This document shows, piece after piece, positions 5,412 through 59,000 of a stretch of DNA of 64,000 nucleotides. The notes beneath the pieces were generated by a model. The model had not been told where the DNA came from and did no database searches. It worked only from the letters and a program-made list of their open reading frames with translations. The translations under genes and the position numbers were made by a program. Origin of the DNA: a virus; IMG/VR virus record IMGVR_UViG_3300045988_117002. One strand, 5' to 3'. Position 1 is the stretch's first letter. Every line of letters starts with the position of its first letter.

Positions 5412-5991
5412 TATTTGTTCCATCCTTAGTATCATATTTTAGTAATTCTCCATCTCTATAAATCTTCTGTGAGCATACTTTTTTAATACATAAATTGGTA
5501 TCAAAATTAGATTTTAATTCCACTTTAGTTACAACAACAGGTGCAACTCCAAATCTTGTGCCGCAATAAATTACATCACCTTTCTGTAACATAAGACTCA
5601 TATAACCCCATGTTTGTGGTAATCTCCAAACAAATTCCTTATCATCTTTACTGTTAGGATGTTTCCCGTATACATAAGCAGTTAGTTTTTCCTTGTATGT
5701 AACAACGTGTTTAGATGGAATCAATCGTCCATACTTTTTACGTTGCTTATCAGTATAAGTATGTTTTCTCAGCGTCAAACGTTTTGCATTAACATATTCC
5801 ACATCATGACTTTTCAACACAAGATACATTATGTAACCATCTACTAAAACATTCTTCTCATCTACTATTATGTACCTATCCTGGTTTCCTGTTTTGTTAT
5901 AGTAATTCTCACACTTTTCATATTTCGACGCATTTGGTGTGCTGCTTTCAAAATCTGTAGGAATTTTAATTTCTGAAAGTTTCATTTTCAT
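5404..5991 (-). CDS. hypothetical protein, possible ParB-like N-terminal domain
   Basis: 195-aa ORF. The N-terminus IKIPTDF...RYIIVDEKNVLVDGYIMYLVLKSHDVEYVNA loosely resembles the ParB/Srx-fold pattern (..I.V....l.DG.hR..A). The assignment is weak. Confidence 0.5.
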   Translation of the reverse strand: MKMKLSEIKIPTDFESSTPNASKYEKCENYYNKTGNQDRYIIVDEKNVLVDGYIMYLVLKSHDVEYVNAKRLTLRKHTYTDKQRKKYGRLIPSKHVVTYKEKLTAYVYGKHPNSKDDKEFVWRLPQTWGYMSLMLQKGDVIYCGTRFGVAPVVVTKVELKSNFDTNLCIKKVCSQKIYRDGELLKYDTKDGTNNV

Positions 5992-6006
5992 ATGTATTCT
6001 CCCTTC

Positions 6007-8304
6007 TTATGCAACTGCTCCTTTATTAAATGCAATCAAGTCATTTCTCATATTGAGATAGTTCTTTTTCTGATCAACATCATATGTATTATTTCTATTG
6101 AAATAGTCCTTAAACCAATCGTCACAATCTACATCGTTTTGATAGGCATATGCAATAACTCCAATGATGGAATCATGGTTAGCGGCCTCGAGAAGTTTTG
6201 ATGAATTATCAACGTCTAAAGTAATCGTATCTAAATATTCTTCATAGTCCTGCACATCAAGTTCTGAAACTGCCTCATCAACACAATCCTGTACAAACTT
6301 TAATGCAGATTTCATATCAGTATGAATTGTGTTATCAATTACTTCTCCGCTCACATGTTCAATTTCAGTGTTTCCAATCGCTGAATACTCTGTTACTTCT
6401 GCGATAGCAGGTTTCTCAGGTGATTCTTCGACCGTTTCTGTATCAAATAAATCATCTTCAACGGTTTCTGGTTCATGTTCTTCTGTGATTTCCTCAACAG
6501 AATCTTCGATATGTAAATATTCTTTCATCAGAGTAAACAAATGATTGAATCTTTTTGTTACGGAAGAACGATCCTTTGTCCCTTTCTGACCATTTAAACA
6601 ATCGTATGTAATGCCATCAATTTCTTTATTATGTAATGTCTCTTTAAATTCCTGAATAAATCCATTAAATTTATCATCTTCAATGTCGTATTCTAAGAAT
6701 TTATCAAATAAAGCAAACCATAAAAATGAATTTTTATTATTAAAAATATCTGATGTATCACCTCTTAACACATTAAATAACTTCTCCAATGTCAAATAAA
6801 AATCAATAAATACTGATTCATTTGCATTTTCAGTTAAGTAAGCACACATTTTACCAAAATCTTTATCAAAATGGCTAAGATATTTAGATGTCATTATTGC
6901 TTCAATAATAATTCTTCTAAGTGATCCATTCTTAATATTCGTATTTGAATAACTTGACTTATCACAATCAACTTTAAAGAAGTCCATCTTTAAAATCTTA
7001 TCTACATATTCAGCATAGGATTCTTCTAATCCTAGCCATCCTGACTGAGAAACGTTCATTGGTCTACATCTGTTGAATCGTGCAATATCATAAGCAATAT
7101 CTTTCTTTGTACAATTCAAATTGAGCATTACAGGAACTTGATAATCTCTAAATTTGTCTTGTAATTCTTCTGGCAACTGAGAAAATTTCTTTCCACGAAT
7201 ATCAAACGTTTTACTTTCAGGTATTGGAAATCCATCTTCATTCAAAATTACATTTCCATCTTCATCTGTTTTGTCGCTCTGATATTCAATCATATATCTC
7301 TGTACATTTTTGGAAATTGCAAATCCATCTTCCAGATAATCTTTTAAATTTGTAGAACGCTGTTTTCCATCAATTAACCAATGCATTATAATTCCAGCTT
7401 TAATTTCTTCTGAAATTACAATCTGTAAAAGTGAATTACCTTGTAAAATATCAGAAATTAATTCACTTTTTGTAAGTAAACTCCATTGTCCATAAGTTCT
7501 TTGCAACGGATGGTTGTCTCTTAATCTGTGCTGCCTTAACTGTTTACTAAGAGATTCTATTGAATAACTGGTAGACTTTGTTCTTTCTGATGTTGTTGTT
7601 TTTGTTTCCATTGGTAATTCCTCCTCAATATTTGCATTCTCACATTCTTCCATTTTTAGAAGTTGTCTTTTTTCATATTCTTTCATATCAGAAAGATATG
7701 TATTATATTCCTTATCGGAGATATGTAAAATCTCTTTAATTTCCGTAGAATTACATCCTTGCATTATTAAATCCACAATTTGACGTTGCACAGATCCAAG
7801 TGAACTAATATATCTAATTACATTTTCTCCAAGATTTAACAATTCTCCAACATCAATACTACTTTCAATATCAAAATCTGAAGGAATTACATCAATATAT
7901 TTTGTTTCTCCATCATCTGTCATTAAATTATCTAATGACGTTGGATAAATATATTCCTTTACTTCCTTTCCATCTTCTTCTGTAACTACTATTTGACAAC
8001 GTTTTCCTCTGTTCTTACGTGTCATATAGGTTTTTATTTTATTTGAAATTGCAAAATACATAAATCCATTGAACTTATTTTCGTCAAAATCTTCAATTCC
8101 TTGTTCCAATTGAGAATTTACATACTTTGTAATCTCTAAATTTGCTATCGAATAGCATTCTTCTCTATCAAAATCGGTGATACCACCAAATTGTGAAAGA
8201 ATTTTATCTACGATGTTATGTAATTTTCTTGCTGATTCTTCTGGTTTATCCTCATTTACTTTATAATAAGATTCCAGAATGTCTTTGTAGTGCATTCGTA
8301 TCAC
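6007..8304 (-). CDS. sigma-70-like (regions 2 and 4) :: DUF262 (ParB/Srx-fold) fusion protein
   Basis: Continuous 765-aa ORF. The N-terminus has a region-2-like block FNGFMYFAISNKIKTYMTRKNRGKR and a region-4 HTH-like block LGSVQRQIVDLIMQGCNSTEIKEILHISDKEYNTYL. The middle has the DUF262 signature PLQRTYGQWS...ELISDIL...WLIDGKQRSTNLKDYL. The C-terminus is paralogous to the 59275..60252 protein. Confidence 0.7.
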   Translation of the reverse strand: MIRMHYKDILESYYKVNEDKPEESARKLHNIVDKILSQFGGITDFDREECYSIANLEITKYVNSQLEQGIEDFDENKFNGFMYFAISNKIKTYMTRKNRGKRCQIVVTEEDGKEVKEYIYPTSLDNLMTDDGETKYIDVIPSDFDIESSIDVGELLNLGENVIRYISSLGSVQRQIVDLIMQGCNSTEIKEILHISDKEYNTYLSDMKEYEKRQLLKMEECENANIEEELPMETKTTTSERTKSTSYSIESLSKQLRQHRLRDNHPLQRTYGQWSLLTKSELISDILQGNSLLQIVISEEIKAGIIMHWLIDGKQRSTNLKDYLEDGFAISKNVQRYMIEYQSDKTDEDGNVILNEDGFPIPESKTFDIRGKKFSQLPEELQDKFRDYQVPVMLNLNCTKKDIAYDIARFNRCRPMNVSQSGWLGLEESYAEYVDKILKMDFFKVDCDKSSYSNTNIKNGSLRRIIIEAIMTSKYLSHFDKDFGKMCAYLTENANESVFIDFYLTLEKLFNVLRGDTSDIFNNKNSFLWFALFDKFLEYDIEDDKFNGFIQEFKETLHNKEIDGITYDCLNGQKGTKDRSSVTKRFNHLFTLMKEYLHIEDSVEEITEEHEPETVEDDLFDTETVEESPEKPAIAEVTEYSAIGNTEIEHVSGEVIDNTIHTDMKSALKFVQDCVDEAVSELDVQDYEEYLDTITLDVDNSSKLLEAANHDSIIGVIAYAYQNDVDCDDWFKDYFNRNNTYDVDQKKNYLNMRNDLIAFNKGAVA

Positions 8305-8341
8305 CGATCCTCTCTGTTGATATGCTGTAATTATGTAATAA

Positions 8342-12414: not shown

Positions 12415-12459
12415 ACCTCCATAAAATCAGTCATTCATCGTATTATTCTACGTTTATAA

Positions 12460-13623
12460 TTATAAATTTATAATTGCAGGGTGTGAATATGCACCCACTA
12501 TCTCATTTGTAGTTACATTTGAGAATACTTTTCTCATAATTTGAAATGCACCATTAACATCCGCATTGATATATTCTCCGTTATTACTCTTAAATAATCC
12601 ACGTTTAATACGTCTTGATTTATTATAATTTTCTTTTATTGGTAACTCATTATCAAGAAAACTCGTTCCTGATGTATAGCTTTCTTCTGTCTTAATCAAG
12701 TTAATTCCAACGCTTTCACATTTATATTCAAGCTTATTGATAAATGTTTCGTATGGAATATACACAAAATTTTGATTAGTAACTTTATTCATTTCAGAAT
12801 TTTGTTTCCATTTATCGTTCTTTCCTATAACAATCGTACCAATATCGTATTTTATACAATAATTGACAATATATTTACTTGCACAGTGCATAAGGTATTC
12901 CATCTTGAAATATCTTTTATCTGTTAATTTTTGCATTTGTTTTGTCCAGTTAAGATCGTTTACTGTTTTGGCAATACTTCTTAATCTCGACATTTTCTTA
13001 TTCCAATATTGATTATAAGATTTTATTCCTTTGCCATTTATAACAATAGAAGATTCTCCTATGTTATTTACAATTGTTACAAAGTTATTTAATCCCAAGT
13101 CAATTGCAGCAATTCTATTACTGTTTAATTGGTAAATGTTTCCATCATCCTCATAAACAATTTCAATAATATAACAACCACCTTTAGGAATAATTCTTGT
13201 TGATAAATGATGTCCTTTTACATTTGATTTAATCAAATTGTTATAAGGTTTCATTCTCTTAAAAGCAAAATATAAATATCCATCTTTAATATGTGTTTGC
13301 ATGTTAGTTAATGTACAAGTAAATCTTCCATCTTTCTTCTTATAAGCAGGAATTTTCGGTTTTCCTAAATATTTTTCTGGATGTAATGTATAATCTTTTA
13401 CAGCTACAAGAAATGATTTCCACGATTTACATAATATTTTTGTAACCATTTGAGCAGAATTTGATCCTAACTCTTTAAATGCATCTGTACTTTTCAATTC
13501 TTTATTCAAGTCCCCATATTTTTTAATTTTTTGAGTTTTAAAAAATTCTTGACGGATAGTATAGTTGCAAAGATTATACATATTCTTTGATAAATAACAT
13601 AACTCATCACATATTTGAAACAT
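12460..13623 (-). CDS. tnpB: TnpB-like RuvC-fold protein (IS200/IS605-IS607 OrfB family)
   Basis: RuvC-I AAIDLGLNNFVT, RuvC-II INLIKTEESYTSGTS and RuvC-III INADVNGAFQIMRKV. No CxxC zinc finger between II and III. The reading frame stays open about 60 nt upstream of the ATG without a canonical start. Confidence 0.8.
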   Translation of the reverse strand: MFQICDELCYLSKNMYNLCNYTIRQEFFKTQKIKKYGDLNKELKSTDAFKELGSNSAQMVTKILCKSWKSFLVAVKDYTLHPEKYLGKPKIPAYKKKDGRFTCTLTNMQTHIKDGYLYFAFKRMKPYNNLIKSNVKGHHLSTRIIPKGGCYIIEIVYEDDGNIYQLNSNRIAAIDLGLNNFVTIVNNIGESSIVINGKGIKSYNQYWNKKMSRLRSIAKTVNDLNWTKQMQKLTDKRYFKMEYLMHCASKYIVNYCIKYDIGTIVIGKNDKWKQNSEMNKVTNQNFVYIPYETFINKLEYKCESVGINLIKTEESYTSGTSFLDNELPIKENYNKSRRIKRGLFKSNNGEYINADVNGAFQIMRKVFSNVTTNEIVGAYSHPAIINL

Positions 13624-13678
13624 TTGATGATTTCTATTTATTACATGTCGTTCTACATTTTGTATATTATCACCTCTA

Positions 13679-13889: not shown

Positions 13890-14714
13890 CTATTCTATCA
13901 TATCTGAATCATCTTGTGGACATAAATAATCTTCTGGTGTTTCTTCTTCATTCGAGAAAATGCACATTCTTTCCTGGTTTTTAAATATTTCTTCATCAGT
14001 GATACAAATATATCTTAAAGTAATACGCATATCAGAATGTCCGAAGATTGTCATAAGCTGTATCAGAGCCTGTTGTTTGTCTGGTGCTGCTAAATAATAA
14101 CTATGTCCAAAAGTCTTACGAAGTCCATGAGTACCAATAGACTGTTTAATACCTGCTTTTATTCTATTCCTCTCAACAGTTCTATACCATGTCATTTCTC
14201 CAATATGTTCACCTTTATTAGAAGAAAAAATATAATCAGTTAACTCAGGAGTTTCATTATGATCTTCTAACCACTTATGCCAATTCTGAATAGCCATTTT
14301 AAAGTCACTGTCATATCTTAATTTGACATATTTTCTTTTAATTACATTTCCACATCTATCTCTACGCTCTGTTTTTTCTGGAACAAACTTCTGTGACTTT
14401 TTAATTCTCCATCCATCTTCATATACATCTTTCCATGTGAGTTTGCAAAAATCCCCACCACGCAATCCAATATTGATTGCACATATGAACATTGTAAGAT
14501 TTCTCATAGCGTTCTTTTCTTTATTAACAGTAGTTGCATTATCAACATCTGTTTTAAACACATTATATACAGATAAAATTTCATCCTTAGTATACAAGCA
14601 TTCCATCTCTGTTGACTTCCCACGCCGTAATGTTTTCTGTTTTGGGAAGTTGTATATCGTTGCTTTCTGTTTTTGATTGATATAACACGACTGTTGGATT
14701 GCTAAAGCTGGCAT
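13890..14714 (-). CDS. tyrosine recombinase (short, catalytic-domain type)
   Basis: Catalytic signature GLRGGDFCKLTWKDV (Arg I), THGLRKTFGHSYY (H-x-x-R), IFGHSDMRITLRYI (His/Tyr). Confidence 0.85.
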   Translation of the reverse strand: MPALAIQQSCYINQKQKATIYNFPKQKTLRRGKSTEMECLYTKDEILSVYNVFKTDVDNATTVNKEKNAMRNLTMFICAINIGLRGGDFCKLTWKDVYEDGWRIKKSQKFVPEKTERRDRCGNVIKRKYVKLRYDSDFKMAIQNWHKWLEDHNETPELTDYIFSSNKGEHIGEMTWYRTVERNRIKAGIKQSIGTHGLRKTFGHSYYLAAPDKQQALIQLMTIFGHSDMRITLRYICITDEEIFKNQERMCIFSNEEETPEDYLCPQDDSDMIE

Positions 14715-37753: not shown

Positions 37754-38609
37754 TGTTATACCTCCTGTTATATATTGTTTATTCTCTTTTTGTTCTCATT
37801 TTTGCAAGCCATTATAATTCAACATTAGAAATTATTTATACTTGACTACTACTCACCGCCACGGGTCTTACGCTTTTGCCCGTCTTTCAAATAACTTTGC
37901 TTGTTGATAATGCCTTGCAACCTAAGTAAAACAAAAAAGTAAATGCTTTATGATATAGAATCAACCACATTTACAAGAATTAACTATTTCGGCAGTCATC
38001 CGCTTTTAACGATTGTATGTTATCGGAAAGTTTTATGTATCATTGATAGATGTTACCTTTCAAACTATTTCAGTCTAAACAAAATCTTAGGTCTTTGTTT
38101 TGCATCTTTCCCCGTTTTTTGATCAGATACGGACAACTGAACTTTTTGTTATTGTTACCCTGTTCACATGGGCTTTTGGTTAGACTTTTTATTTACTTGC
38201 TATCTTGTCAGTATCGCAACCCTTGCAAGAAACTTTATAGCAGTTTATACTTTGTTGCTCTGTATTTTACAAGACTTCTCTTGTCTGGATTTAGTTTATG
38301 TATTACCAGAATCAAAAATCTGTTTTTTTTTTGAAAAGAAATAGATAAAACTTTTTGTTGCAATTGCTTTTTAAGATTTTAAAAATCTTTTGAGATATCC
38401 GATTAAAGCTAACCAGATGTCGTTAGACTTGAGGTATCTACTTTTTCAAACTCGACGCGCCCTCACGGGATACTACACGGCTCATAGCTATTAACTAGAG
38501 ATCTCACGAATTATTTCGCTTTACCTCACAAGCGGTAACGACTCCGCTTGTCACAATATGAAGTTTTATGTATCAACTTGTTTCCCTCTGTTGATGGTAT
38601 TACTATAAC

Positions 38610-38623
38610 ATAGGGTACCCTAT
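38610..38623. promoter_or_regulatory. operator O1: perfect 14-bp palindrome ATAGGGTACCCTAT
   Basis: Self-complementary 14-mer; a second identical copy lies at 38686-38699. Confidence 0.7.
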
Positions 38624-38629
38624 TAGTCA

Positions 38630-38643
38630 ATAGGTTACCCTAT
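38630..38643. promoter_or_regulatory. operator O2: ATAGGTTACCCTAT (one mismatch)
   Basis: Lies 6 bp after O1; 13/14 identical to the palindrome. Confidence 0.6.
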
Positions 38644-38685
38644 GATTTTTTATGTTTGTGAATTGTGTATAATTTACATATTTGT

Positions 38686-38699
38686 ATAGGGTACCCTAT
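38686..38699. promoter_or_regulatory. operator O3: perfect 14-bp palindrome ATAGGGTACCCTAT
   Basis: Occupies the spacer between TTTGTA (38681-38686) and TATAAT (38703-38708). Confidence 0.7.
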
Positions 38700-38731
38700 T
38701 AGTATAATATATACAAATGACCATAGAAAAG

Positions 38732-38760
38732 TTGACAAGATAAAGCTATAATGTTAATAT
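38732..38760 (+). promoter_or_regulatory. sigma-A promoter of the rightward arm
   Basis: TTGACA (38732-38737), 17-nt spacer, TAATAT (38755-38760). The predicted start falls on ACTACTCTT (38766-). Confidence 0.6.
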
Positions 38761-38832
38761 GTAATACTACTCTTACACCAAAAATGAAAAGAGAATTATT
38801 ACATATAATAAATAAAGGAAGGTGTAAGAATT

Positions 38833-39021
38833 ATGGCATATAGCCCAAAATCACAAAAAGATTATAATGATAGATGTACAGTTGTAAAACTTAAATATAC
38901 ACCAGAAGAAACGGAAGAATGTGCAAGAATGAAACGGTATGCAAAAGATAATAACATACCAATGAGCGTATATATCAAGAAGCTAATACAGGATGATCTT
39001 GACAGAAAAGGTTATAAATAA
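38833..39021 (+). CDS. ribbon-helix-helix-like small protein
   Basis: AAAGGAAGGTG RBS. VVKLKYTPEETEECARMKRYAKDNNIPMSVYIKKLIQDDL has the strand-helix-helix layout and resembles the 15683..15870 product. Confidence 0.55.
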   Translation: MAYSPKSQKDYNDRCTVVKLKYTPEETEECARMKRYAKDNNIPMSVYIKKLIQDDLDRKGYK

Positions 39022-39025
39022 ATAT

Positions 39026-39472
39026 ATGATAGACGATAAAATAACAAAAGAGCACATAGAACATTTAAGAGACATAAACTATTATGATGCTTTAAAGTTG
39101 TTTGATAATGGAAATATACGTTATTTATATGATGATTTATTTATAGAGTATATACGCCACATAATAAAGAAATGCTTGTTTATAACTGATACTGATAACA
39201 TGACAGATATAATATATAAATGTTTTGTTGTATCTGGTAACGTGTCAAGATGTCTTAATATGCTTAGATATAATAATATACAGTATAATCAAAAGTTATC
39301 AAATGGAAGATATAGAGTTAATAAGGAAGACGTATATAACGCTTTGAATAATGGTAGATGTGCAGATATTGAAATAGATTTTATAGCACATTTATTATGG
39401 TATGGAAGAAACTACAATGAATTAGATAGTTATATAGATACTATGTTGTCAAAGATAAAACAGTTGTATTAA
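39026..39472 (+). CDS. hypothetical protein
   Basis: Track ORF 38993..39472. The ATG at 39026 avoids overlap with the upstream gene. Confidence 0.5.
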   Translation: MIDDKITKEHIEHLRDINYYDALKLFDNGNIRYLYDDLFIEYIRHIIKKCLFITDTDNMTDIIYKCFVVSGNVSRCLNMLRYNNIQYNQKLSNGRYRVNKEDVYNALNNGRCADIEIDFIAHLLWYGRNYNELDSYIDTMLSKIKQLY

Positions 39473-39876
39473 CCGCATATAATAGGAAGTAACCCTTTAT
39501 CAATCATTGTGATCTGCATAACCTGTTATCATGCGTAAAATGTACAGATAGCCTTGTAAGCTTGTATTTTGCGTTTTAAGGGCTTTTATATCGTATATGA
39601 TAATTATTATAGGCTTATATGCTTAAAGTCATTTATACGGCGTTTTACAAGGTTGTTTTTAAGATAGGATGTACAAAAAGGTTACATCTGGACTGTTTGA
39701 AACGTGCAACATGATGATATTTATGTATCATTTTAATACATTGTTGAGCGTATTTTTACGTCAAAATGTGCGCTATTTTATGCAAGAATATTGTGTATTT
39801 ATACATTGTTTGCGATGTGTTTTTATGCAAAAATTTGTATAAGATAGCGTTGTTTTTATGGGTGGAATAGGTAAAA

Positions 39877-39898
39877 TATTGCGGTAAAATTGCGGTAA
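39877..39898. repeat. perfect tandem 11-mer ATTGCGGTAAA x2
   Basis: Copies at 39877-39887 and 39888-39898. Confidence 0.8.
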
Positions 39899-40680
39899 AG
39901 TGTGAGTATTTTATCTGATTTATGATGTATTTTTATCTTGTTTAATGTGTGGTTTTATCTGTTTTTATGTGGTGTTTTATGTCCTGTTTTGAGATAATTT
40001 TGTTGTGATCTGTTGTTATATTTTAATCTCTGGACGGTGTTAGAATGCTGTATCTATAATGATTTTAGATGATACAGATTGTATAATGTGGCGTGGTTAG
40101 TGTGGTTATATTATGCGTTGTTTGTGTGGTATTATGTTAGATTATGTGAGTATGTATTGTAGTATATTGTATAGTATATCAGAGGTATTATAATAGTAAT
40201 ATTATGTGGTATATTGTAGATGTATAGTTGGATATAGATAGATGTATATTGTGAGTTATATGTGATGTATAATGTATATTATGATGTATATTATTGTATG
40301 TTTATGGTGTGAATTAAGCGTGAGTATTTGATGTGATAGTATGTTATGTTAATATGATTTTGTAGTGAGTTTGGGATGTAATCTTGTCTGCTGTTGTGCG
40401 TCCAGATTGTTTTATTTCGTCCAGATTTGTGTTATGTAAGTGTGTTACAATTTTTGTGTTACATTTGTGTATTATAGTGTAGTGGTGTGCCATCCCATTT
40501 TTACCGCTGTTTTTGATGATAAAGTGGAGTGTATTAGTCTTATTTGTTACGTTTTTGTGGTGTAAGTGGTGATATGATTTTGTGTTATTATTTTGTGTTA
40601 TAATCTTGTAATCGAATTTTTTGTTGGAAATCCAACATAACGAACAGAATTGACCAATAGTCATTTATTTACGTTTTTTC

Positions 40681-40726
40681 GCTCATTTTCTCTTGTTTTC
40701 TCTTATTTTCTCACTTTTCCTTTTTT
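40681..40726. repeat. four T-tracts phased at exactly 10 bp (..TTTTCTC..)
   Basis: cattttctc ttgttttctc ttattttctc acttttcc. Helical phasing predicts intrinsic DNA bending. Confidence 0.7.
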
Positions 40727-40748
40727 CGAGTATACTATAATAATATTT

Positions 40749-40766
40749 ATAATTGTATATACAATT
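40749..40766. repeat. 18-bp perfect palindrome TAATTGTATATACAATTA
   Basis: Self-complementary. It sits where the plus-strand composition flips from C-poor to G-poor. Confidence 0.8.
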
Positions 40767-42062
40767 AAAATCTCCCGTCCGTGATCTGCGTCCAGAATAC
40801 CCAATAAAATTTTAGTTTTATCATACTAACTTTTATATCCTGTACCACCCCCATGTTTTTGACCGGAGTAAAAATGTCAAATAATAACAAAACTTGACTT
40901 TTTACACTTCCTACAAAAGTGCAAAAGTTAGTTTTATTCAACAATAGCAAGGCTTTTCGGGAATTGCATATTACACTATTTTAATCCGATTTTATGATCC
41001 TGTTTTATAATGTATACCAGTAGGACGGGGATAGTTTACATTTGTAATTTTAATATGATATTGTCATATCCACTGATGAGTTCAACTCACACTACTCGTC
41101 CAAAAATCAAAACTGGTAATCCATCATCCCACACTCGCCTCCAACAGAAAAAATTCTCACCCTCACATCACCTCACAAATTGCACCAAATCTACACACAA
41201 CTCACCAAAATAATCAAAATGAGTTCGAGACGGAGTTCGACCGCACCCTTACATGTCAACGCAAAATAAATTTTCTGACAATTCTAAATCACCAATTTTC
41301 ACCCAAAATTACCTATCCCAAATCACAATATCCCTTGCAAAATCTAACAATTTACGAAGTCCTCTCGAAGCGATACCATCACATAATAAATTTAATCTGC
41401 GCACAATTCCAAATAATTTACTCCATCTTCATCCTGCAATATCCCAAATTCCCTTGCCACATCTACCTAAAACGCAGCAATCACTTCTTATTATAAGCAC
41501 ACATCACTCTCCCATCTCAATCAAAATTATCACCCAAAACACTCCCCTCGAAGTCCCAAATCTCAGCTTACCAGAAAATACCCATCTAAATTGTGTTAAA
41601 CTTTCGCACAATTCTAATCACTAAAATTTACTTAAAAAATATATCATAAAAACTTGAAGTGCCAAATTGACACCTCAAGATACAATCATCAAAAACTCTA
41701 AAATCAATTTTATTCTCACTATTCTAATGTACAACTTAAAGCAGACATCACAACTACCCTCACCTGAGCAACTTAGCATCTGCATATTACAATTTTCAAA
41801 TTAAATCTACATCATATTATCTGCAATAAATATCTCAAACAGAGAATCTTATATACAAAGATATATAGGGGGTACTTTTACATCTACAAAAAATCACTAC
41901 TCTCATATCCCACCTAACCTCAAATTTTCACCAGCAAAAATAAATCCTATTTATTTCAAATAGAGAATCTACAACCAGTAACATGCAAACTAAATATTTC
42001 AATACGCAAAGAGAGAAATAATAATTATCAAAAATCATTAAAATAAAAAGGAGATTACACAA

Positions 42063-42686
42063 ATGAATAATAAAATTAACAGTAATGAATATTTGACTAA
42101 ATATTTTAATGGCACAAGATTATATCCTATCAATCTTATTAATTATTTTAAACATTATTACAATTATGATTTTTGCTACCAACATAATGATAATAATTTT
42201 GATGGATCTTTAGATATTATTTTGGATTATCAAGATGCATATAGATTAATTACTTCAAATATATTTCAACCACTTACAATATACAAATGGAATTTTTCAT
42301 CGGCAACATTAAACAAAATCAAATCCATAACAAACAAATATCTTGCCGATAAGAGAATATACATACCAAAAATAACACCAAAATCATACTACTATCTCTC
42401 AAGGGGATATGGTAAATCAATCAGAGAATTGCGTTATTTCATAAAACTAATATCAGATTCAGAAAAGAGTCAATTTTCATATAATCCATATTCATCAGAA
42501 TATACAGTGCAAAATTATAAATCTGATATGGAGAATTTATATAAGAAGATAATATCTGAAAAGATACTTAACTCATATGAAACACAAAATAACTCTACAA
42601 AACAGAAAAGTAATAACAAAGAAGAAATGAGCTGCTTAAAAATTATTGCCGATAAAAACAATATAAATAAGAAATTTCACAAATAA
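42063..42686 (+). CDS. hypothetical protein (Asn/Tyr/Lys-rich)
   Basis: 207-aa ORF; AAAGGAGAT RBS. Confidence 0.6.
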   Translation: MNNKINSNEYLTKYFNGTRLYPINLINYFKHYYNYDFCYQHNDNNFDGSLDIILDYQDAYRLITSNIFQPLTIYKWNFSSATLNKIKSITNKYLADKRIYIPKITPKSYYYLSRGYGKSIRELRYFIKLISDSEKSQFSYNPYSSEYTVQNYKSDMENLYKKIISEKILNSYETQNNSTKQKSNNKEEMSCLKIIADKNNINKKFHK

Positions 42687-57959: not shown

Positions 57960-59000
57960 GTGAGATTATTGGATGGTAAAATCGCAGATAGATCTGTTGA
58001 AATAACAGATGAAGAATGGCAAACAGTAAATGAATTTAATAGAGAAATGGTTGAGGATTATCTTGATAATCAAGCTGACCTTTCTGTAAAAACTTTGCCA
58101 GCATATAAATCGGGATTAAGGATTTTCTTTATCTGGGTTAGGGATAACCTCAAGGACAAGAATTTCACCGATATCAAAAAGAAAGAATTTCAAAAATATC
58201 TTAATTGGTTAACCAAAAGAGGTTTTTCTGATTCTGGTATTAAATTTAAAAAATCTGCTGTAAGTACATTTTGCAATTATGTAATGATGATGTATGAGGA
58301 AGAATATCCTACATTTCGTAATTTCACAATTGGGCTTAAAGTAGTACAAACAGGATATGTTCATGAAAAAGTTCCTCTTACCCCAGATGAATATATTAAT
58401 TTATGTCAAGAACTTGAAAAACGTGAAGAATGGCAAATGTTAGCATATCTTACATTTTCTTACAGTACAGGATGTAGACGTGCAGAAGCTAGACAATTAC
58501 TCAAGGAAGTAATTGATTATTCTGCAAACGAAAAGAAAATCAAAGTTCTGGATGAAGATGGACATGAATATGAAACTATTTCAAAACAGTATTTGACTCA
58601 CACTATTCGTTGCAAAGGAGCATCTCTTGTAGGTAAACCACGTAAACTTAAATTCGGTGATGATGCAATGCAATGGTTGAAAAAATGGATTGAAGTACGT
58701 GGCGAAGATGACTGTCCTTATATGTTTGTAATTAAATCTAAAGATGGGAAAGAAGTTAGACAAGTGAGTGAAAGCACTTTTAATAATTGGTGTCAAGGAT
58801 TATTTACACAAATTGTTGGACGTAGGGTGCATCCTCACTTATTCAGAGAGTCAAGAGCTACAAACCTTGTTGTGTTTCAGCATAAAGCACCAGAGGTAGC
58901 TCAGAAATTACTAGGACATAATCAAGTTACTACGACTTTAGATCATTATATTATTCGTAATGATGAAAATGATGAGTCTGATGAAGCATTTACCGATTGA
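57960..59000 (+). CDS. tyrosine recombinase / integrase (XerC/D-like)
   Basis: SYSTGCRRAEARQL (Arg I), HPHLFRESRATNLV (H-x-x-R), LLGHNQVTTTLDHYI (His/Tyr). Start is GTG 57960 or TTG 57969. Confidence 0.85.
   Translation: MRLLDGKIADRSVEITDEEWQTVNEFNREMVEDYLDNQADLSVKTLPAYKSGLRIFFIWVRDNLKDKNFTDIKKKEFQKYLNWLTKRGFSDSGIKFKKSAVSTFCNYVMMMYEEEYPTFRNFTIGLKVVQTGYVHEKVPLTPDEYINLCQELEKREEWQMLAYLTFSYSTGCRRAEARQLLKEVIDYSANEKKIKVLDEDGHEYETISKQYLTHTIRCKGASLVGKPRKLKFGDDAMQWLKKWIEVRGEDDCPYMFVIKSKDGKEVRQVSESTFNNWCQGLFTQIVGRRVHPHLFRESRATNLVVFQHKAPEVAQKLLGHNQVTTTLDHYIIRNDENDESDEAFTD

What the first reader, a model, noticed from the sequence alone, without database searches (positions are those of the whole stretch)
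40398..40797. Pivot of the gap: phased T-tracts, an 18-bp perfect palindrome and CGTCCAGA repeats
Three features cluster exactly where the composition flips:
- Four T4 tracts spaced at exactly 10 bp (40681-40726), a classic bent-DNA arrangement.
- A perfect palindrome, TAATTGTATATACAATTA (40749-40766).
- The 10-mer CGTCCAGATT twice in direct orientation (40398-40407 and 40417-40426), CGTCCAGAAT at 40788-40797, and an inverted copy TCTGGACG at 40028-40035.

Iteron-like repeats plus bent AT-rich DNA plus a dyad is the grammar of replication origins, partition sites and recombination sites. No initiator gene is adjacent.
Basis: partly seen in the sequence, partly recalled or inferred. Interest (0 to 1): 0.7.

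Follow-up and report, generated by a model that had tools for sequence, protein, structure and literature searches.

The report
Origin-like control region in gut phage
The repeats, bent DNA and palindrome are real and sit in the conserved core of a 2.6-kb gene-free region of a roughly 175-kb gut Firmicute phage; the core is built like a replication origin, but its function remains unproven.

Summary
All the reported features exist, each one base to the right of the stated coordinates. CGTCCAGA occurs 5 times against 0.3 expected. The T-tract array has the strongest 10-11 bp T-tract periodicity in the window. The 18-bp palindrome is not rare on its own (2 seen, 0.9 expected), but it lies in the least stable 40-mer of the 64 kb.

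About 40 related phage contigs share one architecture:
- a C-depleted kilobase;
- lineage-specific short direct repeats (TGTGTTAY x5 here; 3-4 perfect DnaA boxes in a sister clade);
- a dyad whose sequence is free but whose symmetry is kept (8 forms);
- a fixed CGAAC;
- a T-rich 10-bp array, present in some lineages only;
- the dyad AATTGTnTATACAATT;
- an invariant 77-bp block;
- a G-depleted non-coding kilobase.

The perfect palindrome, the T-tracts and the inverted copy at 40029 are not universal. The GTCCAGAT pair is kept in the window's own clade.

Best reading, at about 45%: a modular, bidirectional replication origin with swappable initiator-binding cassettes. Rivals are a transcription-control region or leader, a T5 iss-like or genome-end element, and a partition or recombination site. 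The mirror-image strand composition is unexplained. No recognisable initiator gene lies in the window.

The parts
39473..42062 (.). Gene-free gap between ORF159 (stop codon at 39472) and the first right-arm gene (ATG at 42063).
   Evidence: The ORFs inside it show no codon periodicity in their substitutions, and indels are often not multiples of 3.
39850..40640 (+). C-depleted, G+T-rich half, made of short quasi-periodic repeats with periods of 11-13 and 22.
   Evidence: It contains the lowest-C 500-nt window of the 64 kb (3.4%). Composition is kept in all relatives (C 2.8-4.8%, G 20-26%), although the sequence no longer aligns between clades.
39909..39980 (+). Second phased T-tract array: TTTTATCTG/T three times, 22 bp apart.
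   Evidence: Found. It has the second-strongest 10-11 bp T periodicity in the window. GATTTTATCTGA also recurs in clade E.
39686..39693 (-). GTCCAGAT motif in inverted orientation.
   Evidence: Located. An inverted copy is kept at about this distance in most relatives with enough left flank.
40029..40036 (-).
   Evidence: Present only in the window, L009 and L015. It is lost in MT835469 and the other relatives.
40399..40427 (+). Pair of direct CGTCCAGATT repeats, 19 bp apart.
   Evidence: GTCCAGA is kept at both sites in most of the window's clade, whichever cassette lies to the right. It is absent from the DnaA-box clade.
40428..40601 (+). Lineage-specific short direct repeats, TGTGTTAY x5 in two clusters with a 13-bp period (40428, 40441, 40455; 40581, 40594).
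   Evidence: Located. The same position holds ATGAACAAAT repeats (type B), TGTGGTTAT (type C) or 3-4 perfect DnaA boxes TGTGGATAA (clade E) in relatives.
40617..40645 (+). T6 run, then the dyad TGTTGGA-AA-TCCAACA (40622-40637), then a fixed CGAAC (40641-40645).
   Evidence: Eight different dyad sequences occupy this position across lineages. Seven have stems of at least 6 bp, against 11% of random 42-nt windows. One change is compensatory (GG/CC to GC/GC in clade E). CGAAC lies at a near-constant distance from the invariant block (-223 to -244 in 19 of the 20 forms listed; -193 in L056).
40674..40727 (+). T-rich, roughly 90% pyrimidine array with a 10-bp period: TTTTCTCTTR x3.7, and TCTCTTGTTTT / TCTCTTATTTT.
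   Evidence: Found. It is present in types A, A*, C and, degenerate, in E. It is absent from types B, D, F, G and H.
40731..40770 (.). Least stable 40-mer of the window. It contains TATAAT at 40736 and 40748 and the palindrome at 40750-40767.
   Evidence: Stability rank. The core AATTGTnTATACAATT is kept across cassette types, with the centre base A, C or G. In types D, G and H the half-sites are 13 bp apart. The core marks the mosaic boundary between type A and type B.
40789..40798 (+). CGTCCAGAAT, the third direct copy. It is preceded by TATCYCC units (1 here, up to 3 in relatives) and by GTGATC.
   Evidence: (G/A/T)TCCAGA is kept in most relatives but is variable.
40876..40952 (+). Block that is almost wholly invariant: GTCAA-n13-TTGAC, then TTTTTACACTTCC-n-AAAAGTG, then AATAGCAAGG.
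   Evidence: Three stretches within it (40876-40921 apart from a 3-nt variable loop, and 40943-40952) are identical in representatives of both clades. A type II-A CRISPR spacer in a Firmicute contig matches it: 29/29 in several relatives, 28/29 in the window.
41060..42000 (+). G-depleted, C+A-rich non-coding half with degenerate internal repeats (CACAATTC, CCCTTGC, CGAAGTCC, each x2).
   Evidence: Composition and repeats. Many short blocks are invariant across clades. There is almost no consensus RNA structure.
38833..39472 (+). Context: an RHH-like 62-aa gene (38833-39021) and ORF159 (38993-39472), both transcribed rightwards towards the gap.
   Evidence: ORFs; no family hits. No terminator-like site follows them. 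In MT835469 two large ORFs read into the gap in the same direction.

Best explanation
The pivot (about 40400-40960) is most likely the cis-acting core of the phage's vegetative or plasmid-type replication origin, firing in both directions.

Proposed mechanism, all steps inferred:
- An initiator binds the short direct repeats on the left. In this lineage the repeats are TGTGTTAY and the protein is unknown. In the sister clade the repeats are DnaA boxes and the protein would be host DnaA.
- The phased T-tract array bends the DNA.
- The extremely A+T-rich 40-mer around the AATTGT/ACAATT dyad melts.
- The free-sequence dyad followed by the fixed CGAAC acts as a structure-dependent signal once the DNA is unwound. 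It could be a hairpin for helicase or primase loading, comparable in idea to the primosome assembly sites of Firmicute theta plasmids.
- The GTCCAGAT sites, the TATCYCC units and the invariant block bind further factors.

What is shown: the anatomy, its conservation, the DnaA boxes in relatives, the duplex-stability minimum, and the genome-wide position.

What is not shown: replication, any protein binding, or any role for the strand-biased flanks.
For: 1. Position in the genome. In the complete relative MT835469 (176 kb), two co-oriented gene arms of about 88 and 80 kb run from this region and converge on the far side. The GC skew changes sign at both places. The phage has its own DnaE-type polymerase and a primase-helicase. 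Its closest DnaE relatives are Clostridium phages c-st and phiCD211; from my own recall of the literature, both are maintained as plasmid prophages.

2. DnaA boxes in a sister clade. Six contigs of that clade (L029, L036, L042, L044, L048, L049) have 3-4 perfect TGTGGATAA boxes. They all point the same way, spaced 12/21(/21) bp, at the exact place where the window has TGTGTTAY x5. There are no other perfect boxes in those loci.

3. Swappable cassettes. At least four kinds of short direct repeat are exchanged between lineages beside a constant core. This is the pattern expected of swappable initiator specificity.

4. Melting and bending. The window's least stable 40-mer and its two strongest phased T-tract arrays are here.

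5. The dyad. Its symmetry is kept through eight sequence forms next to a fixed CGAAC.

6. No competing explanation from coding or RNA. The region is non-coding, has no Rfam match and no conserved RNA fold.

7. Promoters. No sigma-A-type promoter is conserved across both clades. The divergent operator region for the two arms lies elsewhere, at 37760-38830.
Against: - The window's own lineage has no DnaA box with one mismatch or fewer in the gap.
- No initiator gene was recognised in 64 kb.
- The iteron type does not co-vary with the neighbouring genes. ORF207 N-terminal variants and the presence of ORF159 are both independent of it.
- The T-tract array is absent from several lineages.
- DnaA boxes in a conserved phage non-coding region need not mark an origin, as the T5 iss region shows (10.1101/866236).
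- GC skew is confounded with gene orientation, and the strand switch lies 2 kb from the pivot.
- The local skew of the flanks is opposite to a mutational leading-strand skew for forks leaving the pivot.
- The match of the T-rich unit to the E. coli 13-mer consensus TCTnTTnTTTT is not enriched in the window (7 seen, 5.7 expected).
- The related phages c-st and phiCD211 have no such region.
Confidence: 0.45

Rival explanations
1. This is a transcription-control region and long leader, not an origin. The dyad at 40750-40767 would be an operator overlapping a -10-like box (TATAAT at 40748, TACAAT at 40760), with the phased T-tracts acting as an UP-like element. The repeats would bind regulators. 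The G-free, C+A-rich 1.2 kb would be an untranslated leader of the ORF207-antirepressor operon, acting as a target for Rho or for an RNA-binding protein. The immI regions of P22 and P1, which control antirepressor genes, are the comparison.
For: - TATAAT and TACAAT boxes lie at or in the dyad, and clade E (L029) has TGcTATAAT just upstream.
- The dyad sits in the most easily melted DNA.
- The first downstream genes are ORF207 and an AntA-type antirepressor.
- The right half is conserved, unstructured and G-poor, as expected of a Rho-loading RNA.
- An RHH gene and other putative regulators are nearby.
Against: - No -35/-10 pair is conserved across both clades at the pivot, and promoter-like sites are not enriched (29 seen, 32.7 expected).
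- The upstream TATAAT is lost in L042, L048 and L049.
- A separate operator-rich divergent region already exists at 37760-38830.
- DnaA-box arrays and a free-sequence dyad are not typical promoter parts.
- The mirror-image C-free left half has no gene to lead to.
Confidence: 0.25
2. This is a DNA-entry or genome-end element. It would be a large conserved non-coding region with repeats, palindromes and, in some lineages, DnaA boxes. It would work like the T5 injection-stop region, or hold the terminal repeat or packaging site.
For: - The T5 iss region is a 1.7-kb conserved non-coding stretch full of repeats and palindromes, with ordered DnaA boxes, and it lies far from the T5 origins.
- The related phage c-st has 404-bp terminal repeats inside non-coding DNA.
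- The invariant block could be a terminase or cutting site.
Against: - There is no sign of ends here. Locus boundaries proved to be storage chunks, and whole small contigs end at scattered positions.
- MT835469 and an IMG/VR contig break elsewhere.
- The terminase and portal genes are about 20-25 kb away.
- The DnaA boxes here are tandem and co-oriented, not paired as in T5.
Confidence: 0.1
3. This is a plasmid-prophage maintenance site. It would be either a partition centromere made of 11-13-bp repeat arrays bound by an RHH or other adaptor, or a core site for one of the phage's tyrosine recombinases, serving dimer resolution or integration.
For: - The left half is built of arrays with periods of 11-13 and 22 bp, and an RHH gene lies just upstream.
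- The window carries two tyrosine recombinases and a MazF-type toxin.
- The dyad can be read as 6-bp arms around a 6-bp spacer.
- The dyad marks a mosaic boundary.
Against: - No ParA, ParM or TubZ-type NTPase is adjacent; ORF159 had no family match and I saw no Walker A motif on reading its sequence.
- The RHH gene has its own palindromic operators upstream.
- The recombinase genes are 17-27 kb away.
- All of the roughly 40 relatives are colinear through the dyad. None shows a bacterial junction or an inversion.
Confidence: 0.1
4. The elements are chance features of A+T-rich, low-complexity spacer DNA and have no specific function.
For: An 18-bp palindrome is expected about once per 64 kb. The 13-mer-like pattern is not enriched.
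Against: - The motif counts and the phasing exceed shuffles.
- The elements keep their order across two clades whose flanks no longer align.
- The dyad is kept through compensatory change.
- A host CRISPR spacer targets the invariant block.
Confidence: 0.03

Closest known systems
DnaA-dependent origins: oriC, and plasmid or phage origins with DnaA boxes such as P1 oriR and pSC101
   Same: In clade E there is a co-oriented cluster of perfect DnaA boxes next to a T-rich, periodic, easily melted region. The region lies near the point where the two arms diverge and the skew changes sign.
   Different: The window's own lineage has no DnaA box. The order of boxes relative to the T-rich strand is not that of E. 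coli oriC. There is no dnaA or rep gene beside it. It also has extra parts: a free-sequence dyad with CGAAC, an invariant 77-bp block, and kilobase-long strand-biased flanks.
Iteron origins of plasmids and lambdoid phages (lambda ori, P1, F, R6K)
   Same: Short direct repeats are swapped between lineages as a specificity cassette. Bent DNA and an A+T-rich segment lie next to them. A nearby dyad shares TACAAT with one of the window's five TGTGTTAY repeat copies (40446), which recalls inverted half-iterons used as operators.
   Different: The repeats are 8-10 bp with a 13-bp period, not 17-22 bp. No rep or O-type gene contains or flanks them. Binding is untested.
Transcription-primed theta origins (ColE1 RNA II, pAMbeta1 with its ssiA hairpin, T4 oriF)
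   Same: Genes upstream read into the region without a recognisable terminator. The transcript entering from the left would be G-rich and nearly C-free, which favours R-loops and would escape Rho. A structure-dependent hairpin lies at the core.
   Different: No transcript, R-loop or primer has been observed. The arrangement is mirror-symmetric on both sides, which none of these systems shows.
Phage T5 injection-stop (iss) region
   Same: It is a large, conserved non-coding stretch packed with direct repeats, palindromes and DnaA boxes.
   Different: T5 boxes come in pairs 3 bp apart inside large inverted repeats within the terminal repeat. Here the boxes are tandem, occur only in one clade, and nothing places the region at a genome end.

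Membership tests
DnaA-box (oriC-type) origin | A cluster of DnaA boxes (TTATCCACA or near-consensus) | tested here: not met
   The window gap has no box with one mismatch or fewer. The feature is met only in sister clade E, with 3-4 perfect boxes.
DnaA-box (oriC-type) origin | An adjacent A+T-rich DNA unwinding element | tested here: met
   40731-40770 is the least stable 40-mer of 64 kb. A T-rich periodic array lies beside it. The resemblance to the 13-mer consensus is weak.
DnaA-box (oriC-type) origin | A strand-skew switch at the site | tested here: inconclusive
   The arms switch skew near here. However, the skew follows gene orientation, the switch lies about 2 kb to the left, and the local flanks have the opposite sign.
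DnaA-box (oriC-type) origin | Initiation of replication mapped to the site | not testable with these tools
   This needs marker-frequency sequencing, 2D gels or an autonomous-replication assay.
Iteron-type origin | Three or more regularly spaced direct repeats, specific to the replicon | tested here: met
   TGTGTTAY occurs 5 times with 13-bp spacing in two clusters. Other repeat families replace it in other lineages. The units are shorter than classical iterons.
Iteron-type origin | A cognate initiator gene next to the iterons or containing them | tested here: not met
   No Rep, O, RepL or DnaD-type family was found in the flanking genes or in any other window ORF of 100 aa or more that I judged a likely gene; ORFs nested on the opposite strand of longer ones were left out. 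The neighbouring genes do not co-vary with the repeat type.
Sigma-A promoter with operator | A -35/-10 pair conserved in relatives | tested here: not met
   No pair at the pivot is shared by both clades. Only -10-like boxes are present.
Sigma-A promoter with operator | A dyad-symmetric site overlapping the start region | tested here: inconclusive
   The dyad AATTGTnTATACAATT is conserved and overlaps TATAAT and TACAAT. The transcription start is unknown.
Structured non-coding RNA | A conserved secondary structure or a match to a known family | tested here: not met
   There is no credible Rfam match (one weak snoRNA hit, E = 0.12, far below its gathering score). Consensus folding energies are only -3 to -11 kcal/mol per 150-370 nt.
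T5 iss-like or terminal-repeat element | Location in a terminal repeat or at fixed genome ends | tested here: inconclusive
   No contig or record ends cluster here. Virion ends cannot be read from assemblies.
Tyrosine-recombinase core site | Rearranged junctions (attL/attR or an inversion) in relatives | tested here: not met
   All relatives are colinear through the dyad.

The most novel reading that the evidence does not exclude
The mirror-image strand composition is itself the functional device. About 1 kb that is nearly C-free, and about 1.1 kb that is nearly G-free, flank a hairpin-marked core. The composition is kept in every relative even where the sequence is not.

One possible mechanism is two convergent untranslated transcripts that are C-free. 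Lacking C, they would escape Rho and would be prone to forming R-loops, so they could prime or activate a bidirectional origin.

The converse is also possible. Outward transcripts would be G-free and C-rich, and would act as giant Rho-loading insulators around the origin.

Either would be an origin design not described before, with initiator-binding cassettes, host DnaA boxes among them, swapped between close relatives.
Probability: 0.15. Interest if true: 0.75.

Novelty: new variant of a known kind. Interest (0 to 1): 0.45.

Why it matters
If this is the origin, it gives a defined cis element for a widespread, uncultured group of roughly 175-kb human-gut Firmicute phages. That element would be useful for building shuttle replicons and for reading replication activity from metagenome coverage. 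It would also show close relatives exchanging initiator-recognition cassettes, one of which recruits host DnaA. The composition-selected flanks could reveal a way of shielding or priming an origin through RNA composition, which RNA-seq and Rho inhibition can test directly. If it is only a regulatory leader, the finding is ordinary.

Tried and rejected
- **Contig ends as evidence for genome termini.** Rejected. Locus boundaries are storage chunks: L035 ends exactly where L006 starts. Whole small contigs end at scattered positions.
- **Coding potential of the C+A-rich ORFs** (41010-41213, 41253-41624, and 40344-40664 on the minus strand). Rejected for the two plus-strand ORFs, which were tested: substitutions show no codon periodicity and indels are often not multiples of 3. 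The minus-strand ORF was not tested; it lies in the stretch that is replaced wholesale between cassette types.
- **Known RNA families, tRNAs and terminators.** Nothing relevant was found. The one terminator-like hairpin (41653-41679, minus strand) was not pursued.
- **A giant hairpin formed by the two halves.** Rejected. The pairing gain equals that of shuffled controls, and the weak inverted matches are not nested.
- **A cognate protein inferred from co-variation.** ORF207 N-terminal variants and the presence of ORF159 or the RHH gene do not track the cassette type.
- **Homologous regions in c-st and phiCD211.** Neither has a comparable gap, shared motifs or DnaA boxes at its divergence point.
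- **Plasmid database.** No match.
- **PDB, NCBIfam, Pfam and PHROGs searches of the flanking small proteins.** Uninformative.
- **An invertible segment between the inverted GTCCAGAT sites (39686 and 40400).** No relative shows the inverted state.
- **The c-st genome paper.** It could not be read.
Full report
**Observation**

- CGTCCAGATT lies at 40399 and 40418, and CGTCCAGAAT at 40789.
- The inverted copy lies at 40029-40036.
- The perfect 18-bp palindrome lies at 40750-40767.
- T4 tracts start at 40686, 40696, 40706 and 40715, flanked by T6 runs.

CGTCCAGA occurs 5 times in the window against 0.30 expected. One phased array of at least four T-tracts is seen against 0.03 expected, and it has the strongest 10-11 bp T-tract periodicity in the 64 kb. 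Two perfect palindromes of this length are seen against 0.9 expected, so the palindrome is not remarkable alone. It does lie inside the least stable 40-mer of the window, 40731-40770.

The composition flip is real. On the + strand, C falls to 0-5% with G at 21-29% on the left. On the right, G falls to 5-7% in most 100-nt bins (12% in one) with C at 21-37% over most of the half, 16-25% near its right end.

**Context**

The window belongs to a roughly 175-kb phage from the human gut with about 30% G+C. The only GenBank relative is the unannotated record MT835469. I read that record in full.

The phage has two long co-oriented gene arms.
- The window's left arm runs on to a primase-helicase, a DnaE-type polymerase and NrdD.
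- The right arm runs on to the portal, tape-measure, tail-fibre and endolysin genes.
- The arms are about 88 and 80 kb long and converge on the far side.

The host is probably a clostridial Firmicute.
- The closest DnaE sequences (about 40% identity) are those of Clostridium phages c-st and phiCD211; from my own recall of the literature, both are maintained as plasmid prophages.
- One MAG contig is labelled Lachnoclostridium.
- A Gram-positive contig with a type II-A CRISPR array carries a spacer against this region.

One correction matters. The gene-strand switch is not at the pivot. It lies at 37760-38830, a separate non-coding stretch with three TAGGGTACCCTA palindromes. From there an RHH-like gene and ORF159 are transcribed rightwards into the gap. 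In MT835469 two large ORFs do the same.

The ORFs inside the right half of the gap are not genes. Their substitutions show no codon periodicity, and many indels are not multiples of three.

**Comparative anatomy**

DNA-pattern scans gave about 40 true relatives. Aligning them shows one shared order of parts on the + strand:

1. A C-depleted G+T-rich kilobase. C is 2.8-4.8% and G 20-26% in every relative, although the sequence no longer aligns between the two clades.
2. A pair of GTCCAGAT sites, in the window's clade only.
3. A cassette of short direct repeats that differs by lineage.
   - The window type has TGTGTTAY x5.
   - Type B has ATGAACAAAT.
   - Type C has TGTGGTTAT.
   - Clade E has three or four perfect DnaA boxes, TGTGGATAA, all co-oriented and spaced 12/21/21 bp.
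4. A dyad whose sequence is free but whose symmetry is kept.
   - There are eight forms, and seven have stems of at least 6 bp, against 11% of random windows.
   - TGTTGGA/TCCAACA here becomes TGTTGCA/TGCAACA in clade E.
5. A fixed CGAAC at a near-constant distance from the invariant block.
6. A T-rich array with a 10-bp period. It is present in types A, A*, C and E, and absent from B, D, F, G and H.
7. The dyad AATTGTnTATACAATT.
   - The centre base is A, C or G.
   - In three lineages the half-sites are 13 bp apart.
   - It marks the boundary between cassette types A and B.
8. One to three TATCYCC units, followed by a variable (G)TCCAGA.
9. A block at 40876-40952, most of it identical in all sequences compared.
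10. A G-depleted C+A-rich kilobase (G 4.6-7.8%, C 26-31%) with many short invariant blocks.

The perfect 18-bp palindrome is peculiar to this genome; clade E has a perfect 14-bp core. The inverted copy at 40029 occurs in only three genomes.

**Interpretation**

The best-supported reading is a modular replication origin. The supporting points are:
- the position about 2-3 kb from where two nearly equal arms diverge;
- DnaA-box arrays in one clade, at the place where other lineages have their own direct repeats;
- bent DNA and the easiest-melting DNA beside those repeats;
- a structure-preserved dyad;
- no coding potential or RNA structure;
- no promoter conserved across both clades.

I put this at about 0.45, because several points count against it.
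- The window itself has no DnaA box.
- No initiator gene was recognised among the window ORFs scanned, which were the flanking small genes and the ORFs of 100 aa or more that I judged likely genes.
- The cassette type does not co-vary with the neighbouring genes.
- The T5 iss region shows that ordered DnaA boxes in phage non-coding DNA need not mark an origin.
- The skew evidence is confounded by gene orientation.

The rivals, with my estimates, are:
- an operator-plus-leader region for the ORF207-antirepressor operon (0.25);
- an iss-like or genome-end element (0.1);
- a centromere or recombinase site (0.1);
- chance (0.03).

**Unexplained**

The strand-mirrored composition is conserved as composition, not as sequence. 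Its sign is opposite to that of the adjoining arms, and opposite to a mutational leading-strand skew for forks leaving the pivot.

The two halves would pair as RNA only because of their composition. Three ideas could account for the pattern, and strand-specific RNA-seq could test the first two:
- inward transcripts that are C-free, so that they escape Rho and tend to form R-loops;
- outward transcripts that are G-free and load Rho;
- a G-free lagging-strand template.

c-st and phiCD211 have nothing similar.

**Verdict**

The region is best filed as a new variant of a known kind, an origin-like cis element, of moderate interest. There is a smaller chance that the composition-selected flanks reflect an undescribed mechanism.

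Noticed in passing
window 38610-38703: Three copies of ATAGGGTACCCTATTAGT, whose core TAGGGTACCCTA is a perfect 12-bp palindrome (the middle copy is imperfect). They lie in the 1-kb non-coding stretch where the gene strand actually switches, just upstream of the RHH-like gene at 38833. They are probably its operators and the true divergent promoter region.
   Followed up: partly
L060 (OIWL01004460.1), CRISPR array at about 5850-6420 and cas genes at 6473-8323: A Gram-positive contig with teichoic-acid genes carries a type II-A CRISPR locus (Cas1, Cas2, Csn2). One of its spacers, AGTCAAATAATAACAAAACTTGACTTTTT, matches the invariant block of the gap: 29/29 in several relatives and 28/29 in the window at 40875-40903. 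This links the phage to a host, and the target is non-coding DNA.
   Followed up: partly
window 12424-13661: An IS605-type TnpB (OrfB) gene lies here. In MT835469 the same 1.2-kb segment, 96% identical, sits at a different place (41302-42539). The element has therefore moved recently.
   Followed up: no
L041, L050, L051, L054, L057, L058, L061, L063, L064, L070 (samples Ga0209475 and Ga0209692): Ten unrelated contigs carry the same 23-mer, GTCAAATAATAACAAAACTTGAC, directly after a repeated element of about 110 nt (CAATAGCGTCCTAAATAAAAAAAATGATAGAGAG...). Their upstream flanks all differ. This looks like a repeated or mobile element in another community. The reason for the shared 23-mer is unknown.
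   Followed up: no
window 39909-39980: A second phased T-tract array, with TTTTATCTG/T three times at 22-bp spacing, lies 750 bp to the left of the pivot array. The motif GATTTTATCTGA also recurs in the DnaA-box clade.
   Followed up: partly
window 42063-42686 and relatives: The first right-arm gene, ORF207, has at least four unrelated N-terminal modules joined to one conserved C-terminal part (…SATLNKIKSITNKYLADKRIY…). The modules are shuffled independently of the upstream cassette type.
   Followed up: partly
window, one ORF each among those of 100 aa or more (positions not resolved): Pfam hits point to a MazF/PemK toxin, a Clp protease, an IS4/5 transposase, GmrSD-like nucleases and two tyrosine recombinases (13890-14714 on the minus strand, 57960-59000 on the plus strand). 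This gene content resembles that of a plasmid prophage.
   Followed up: no
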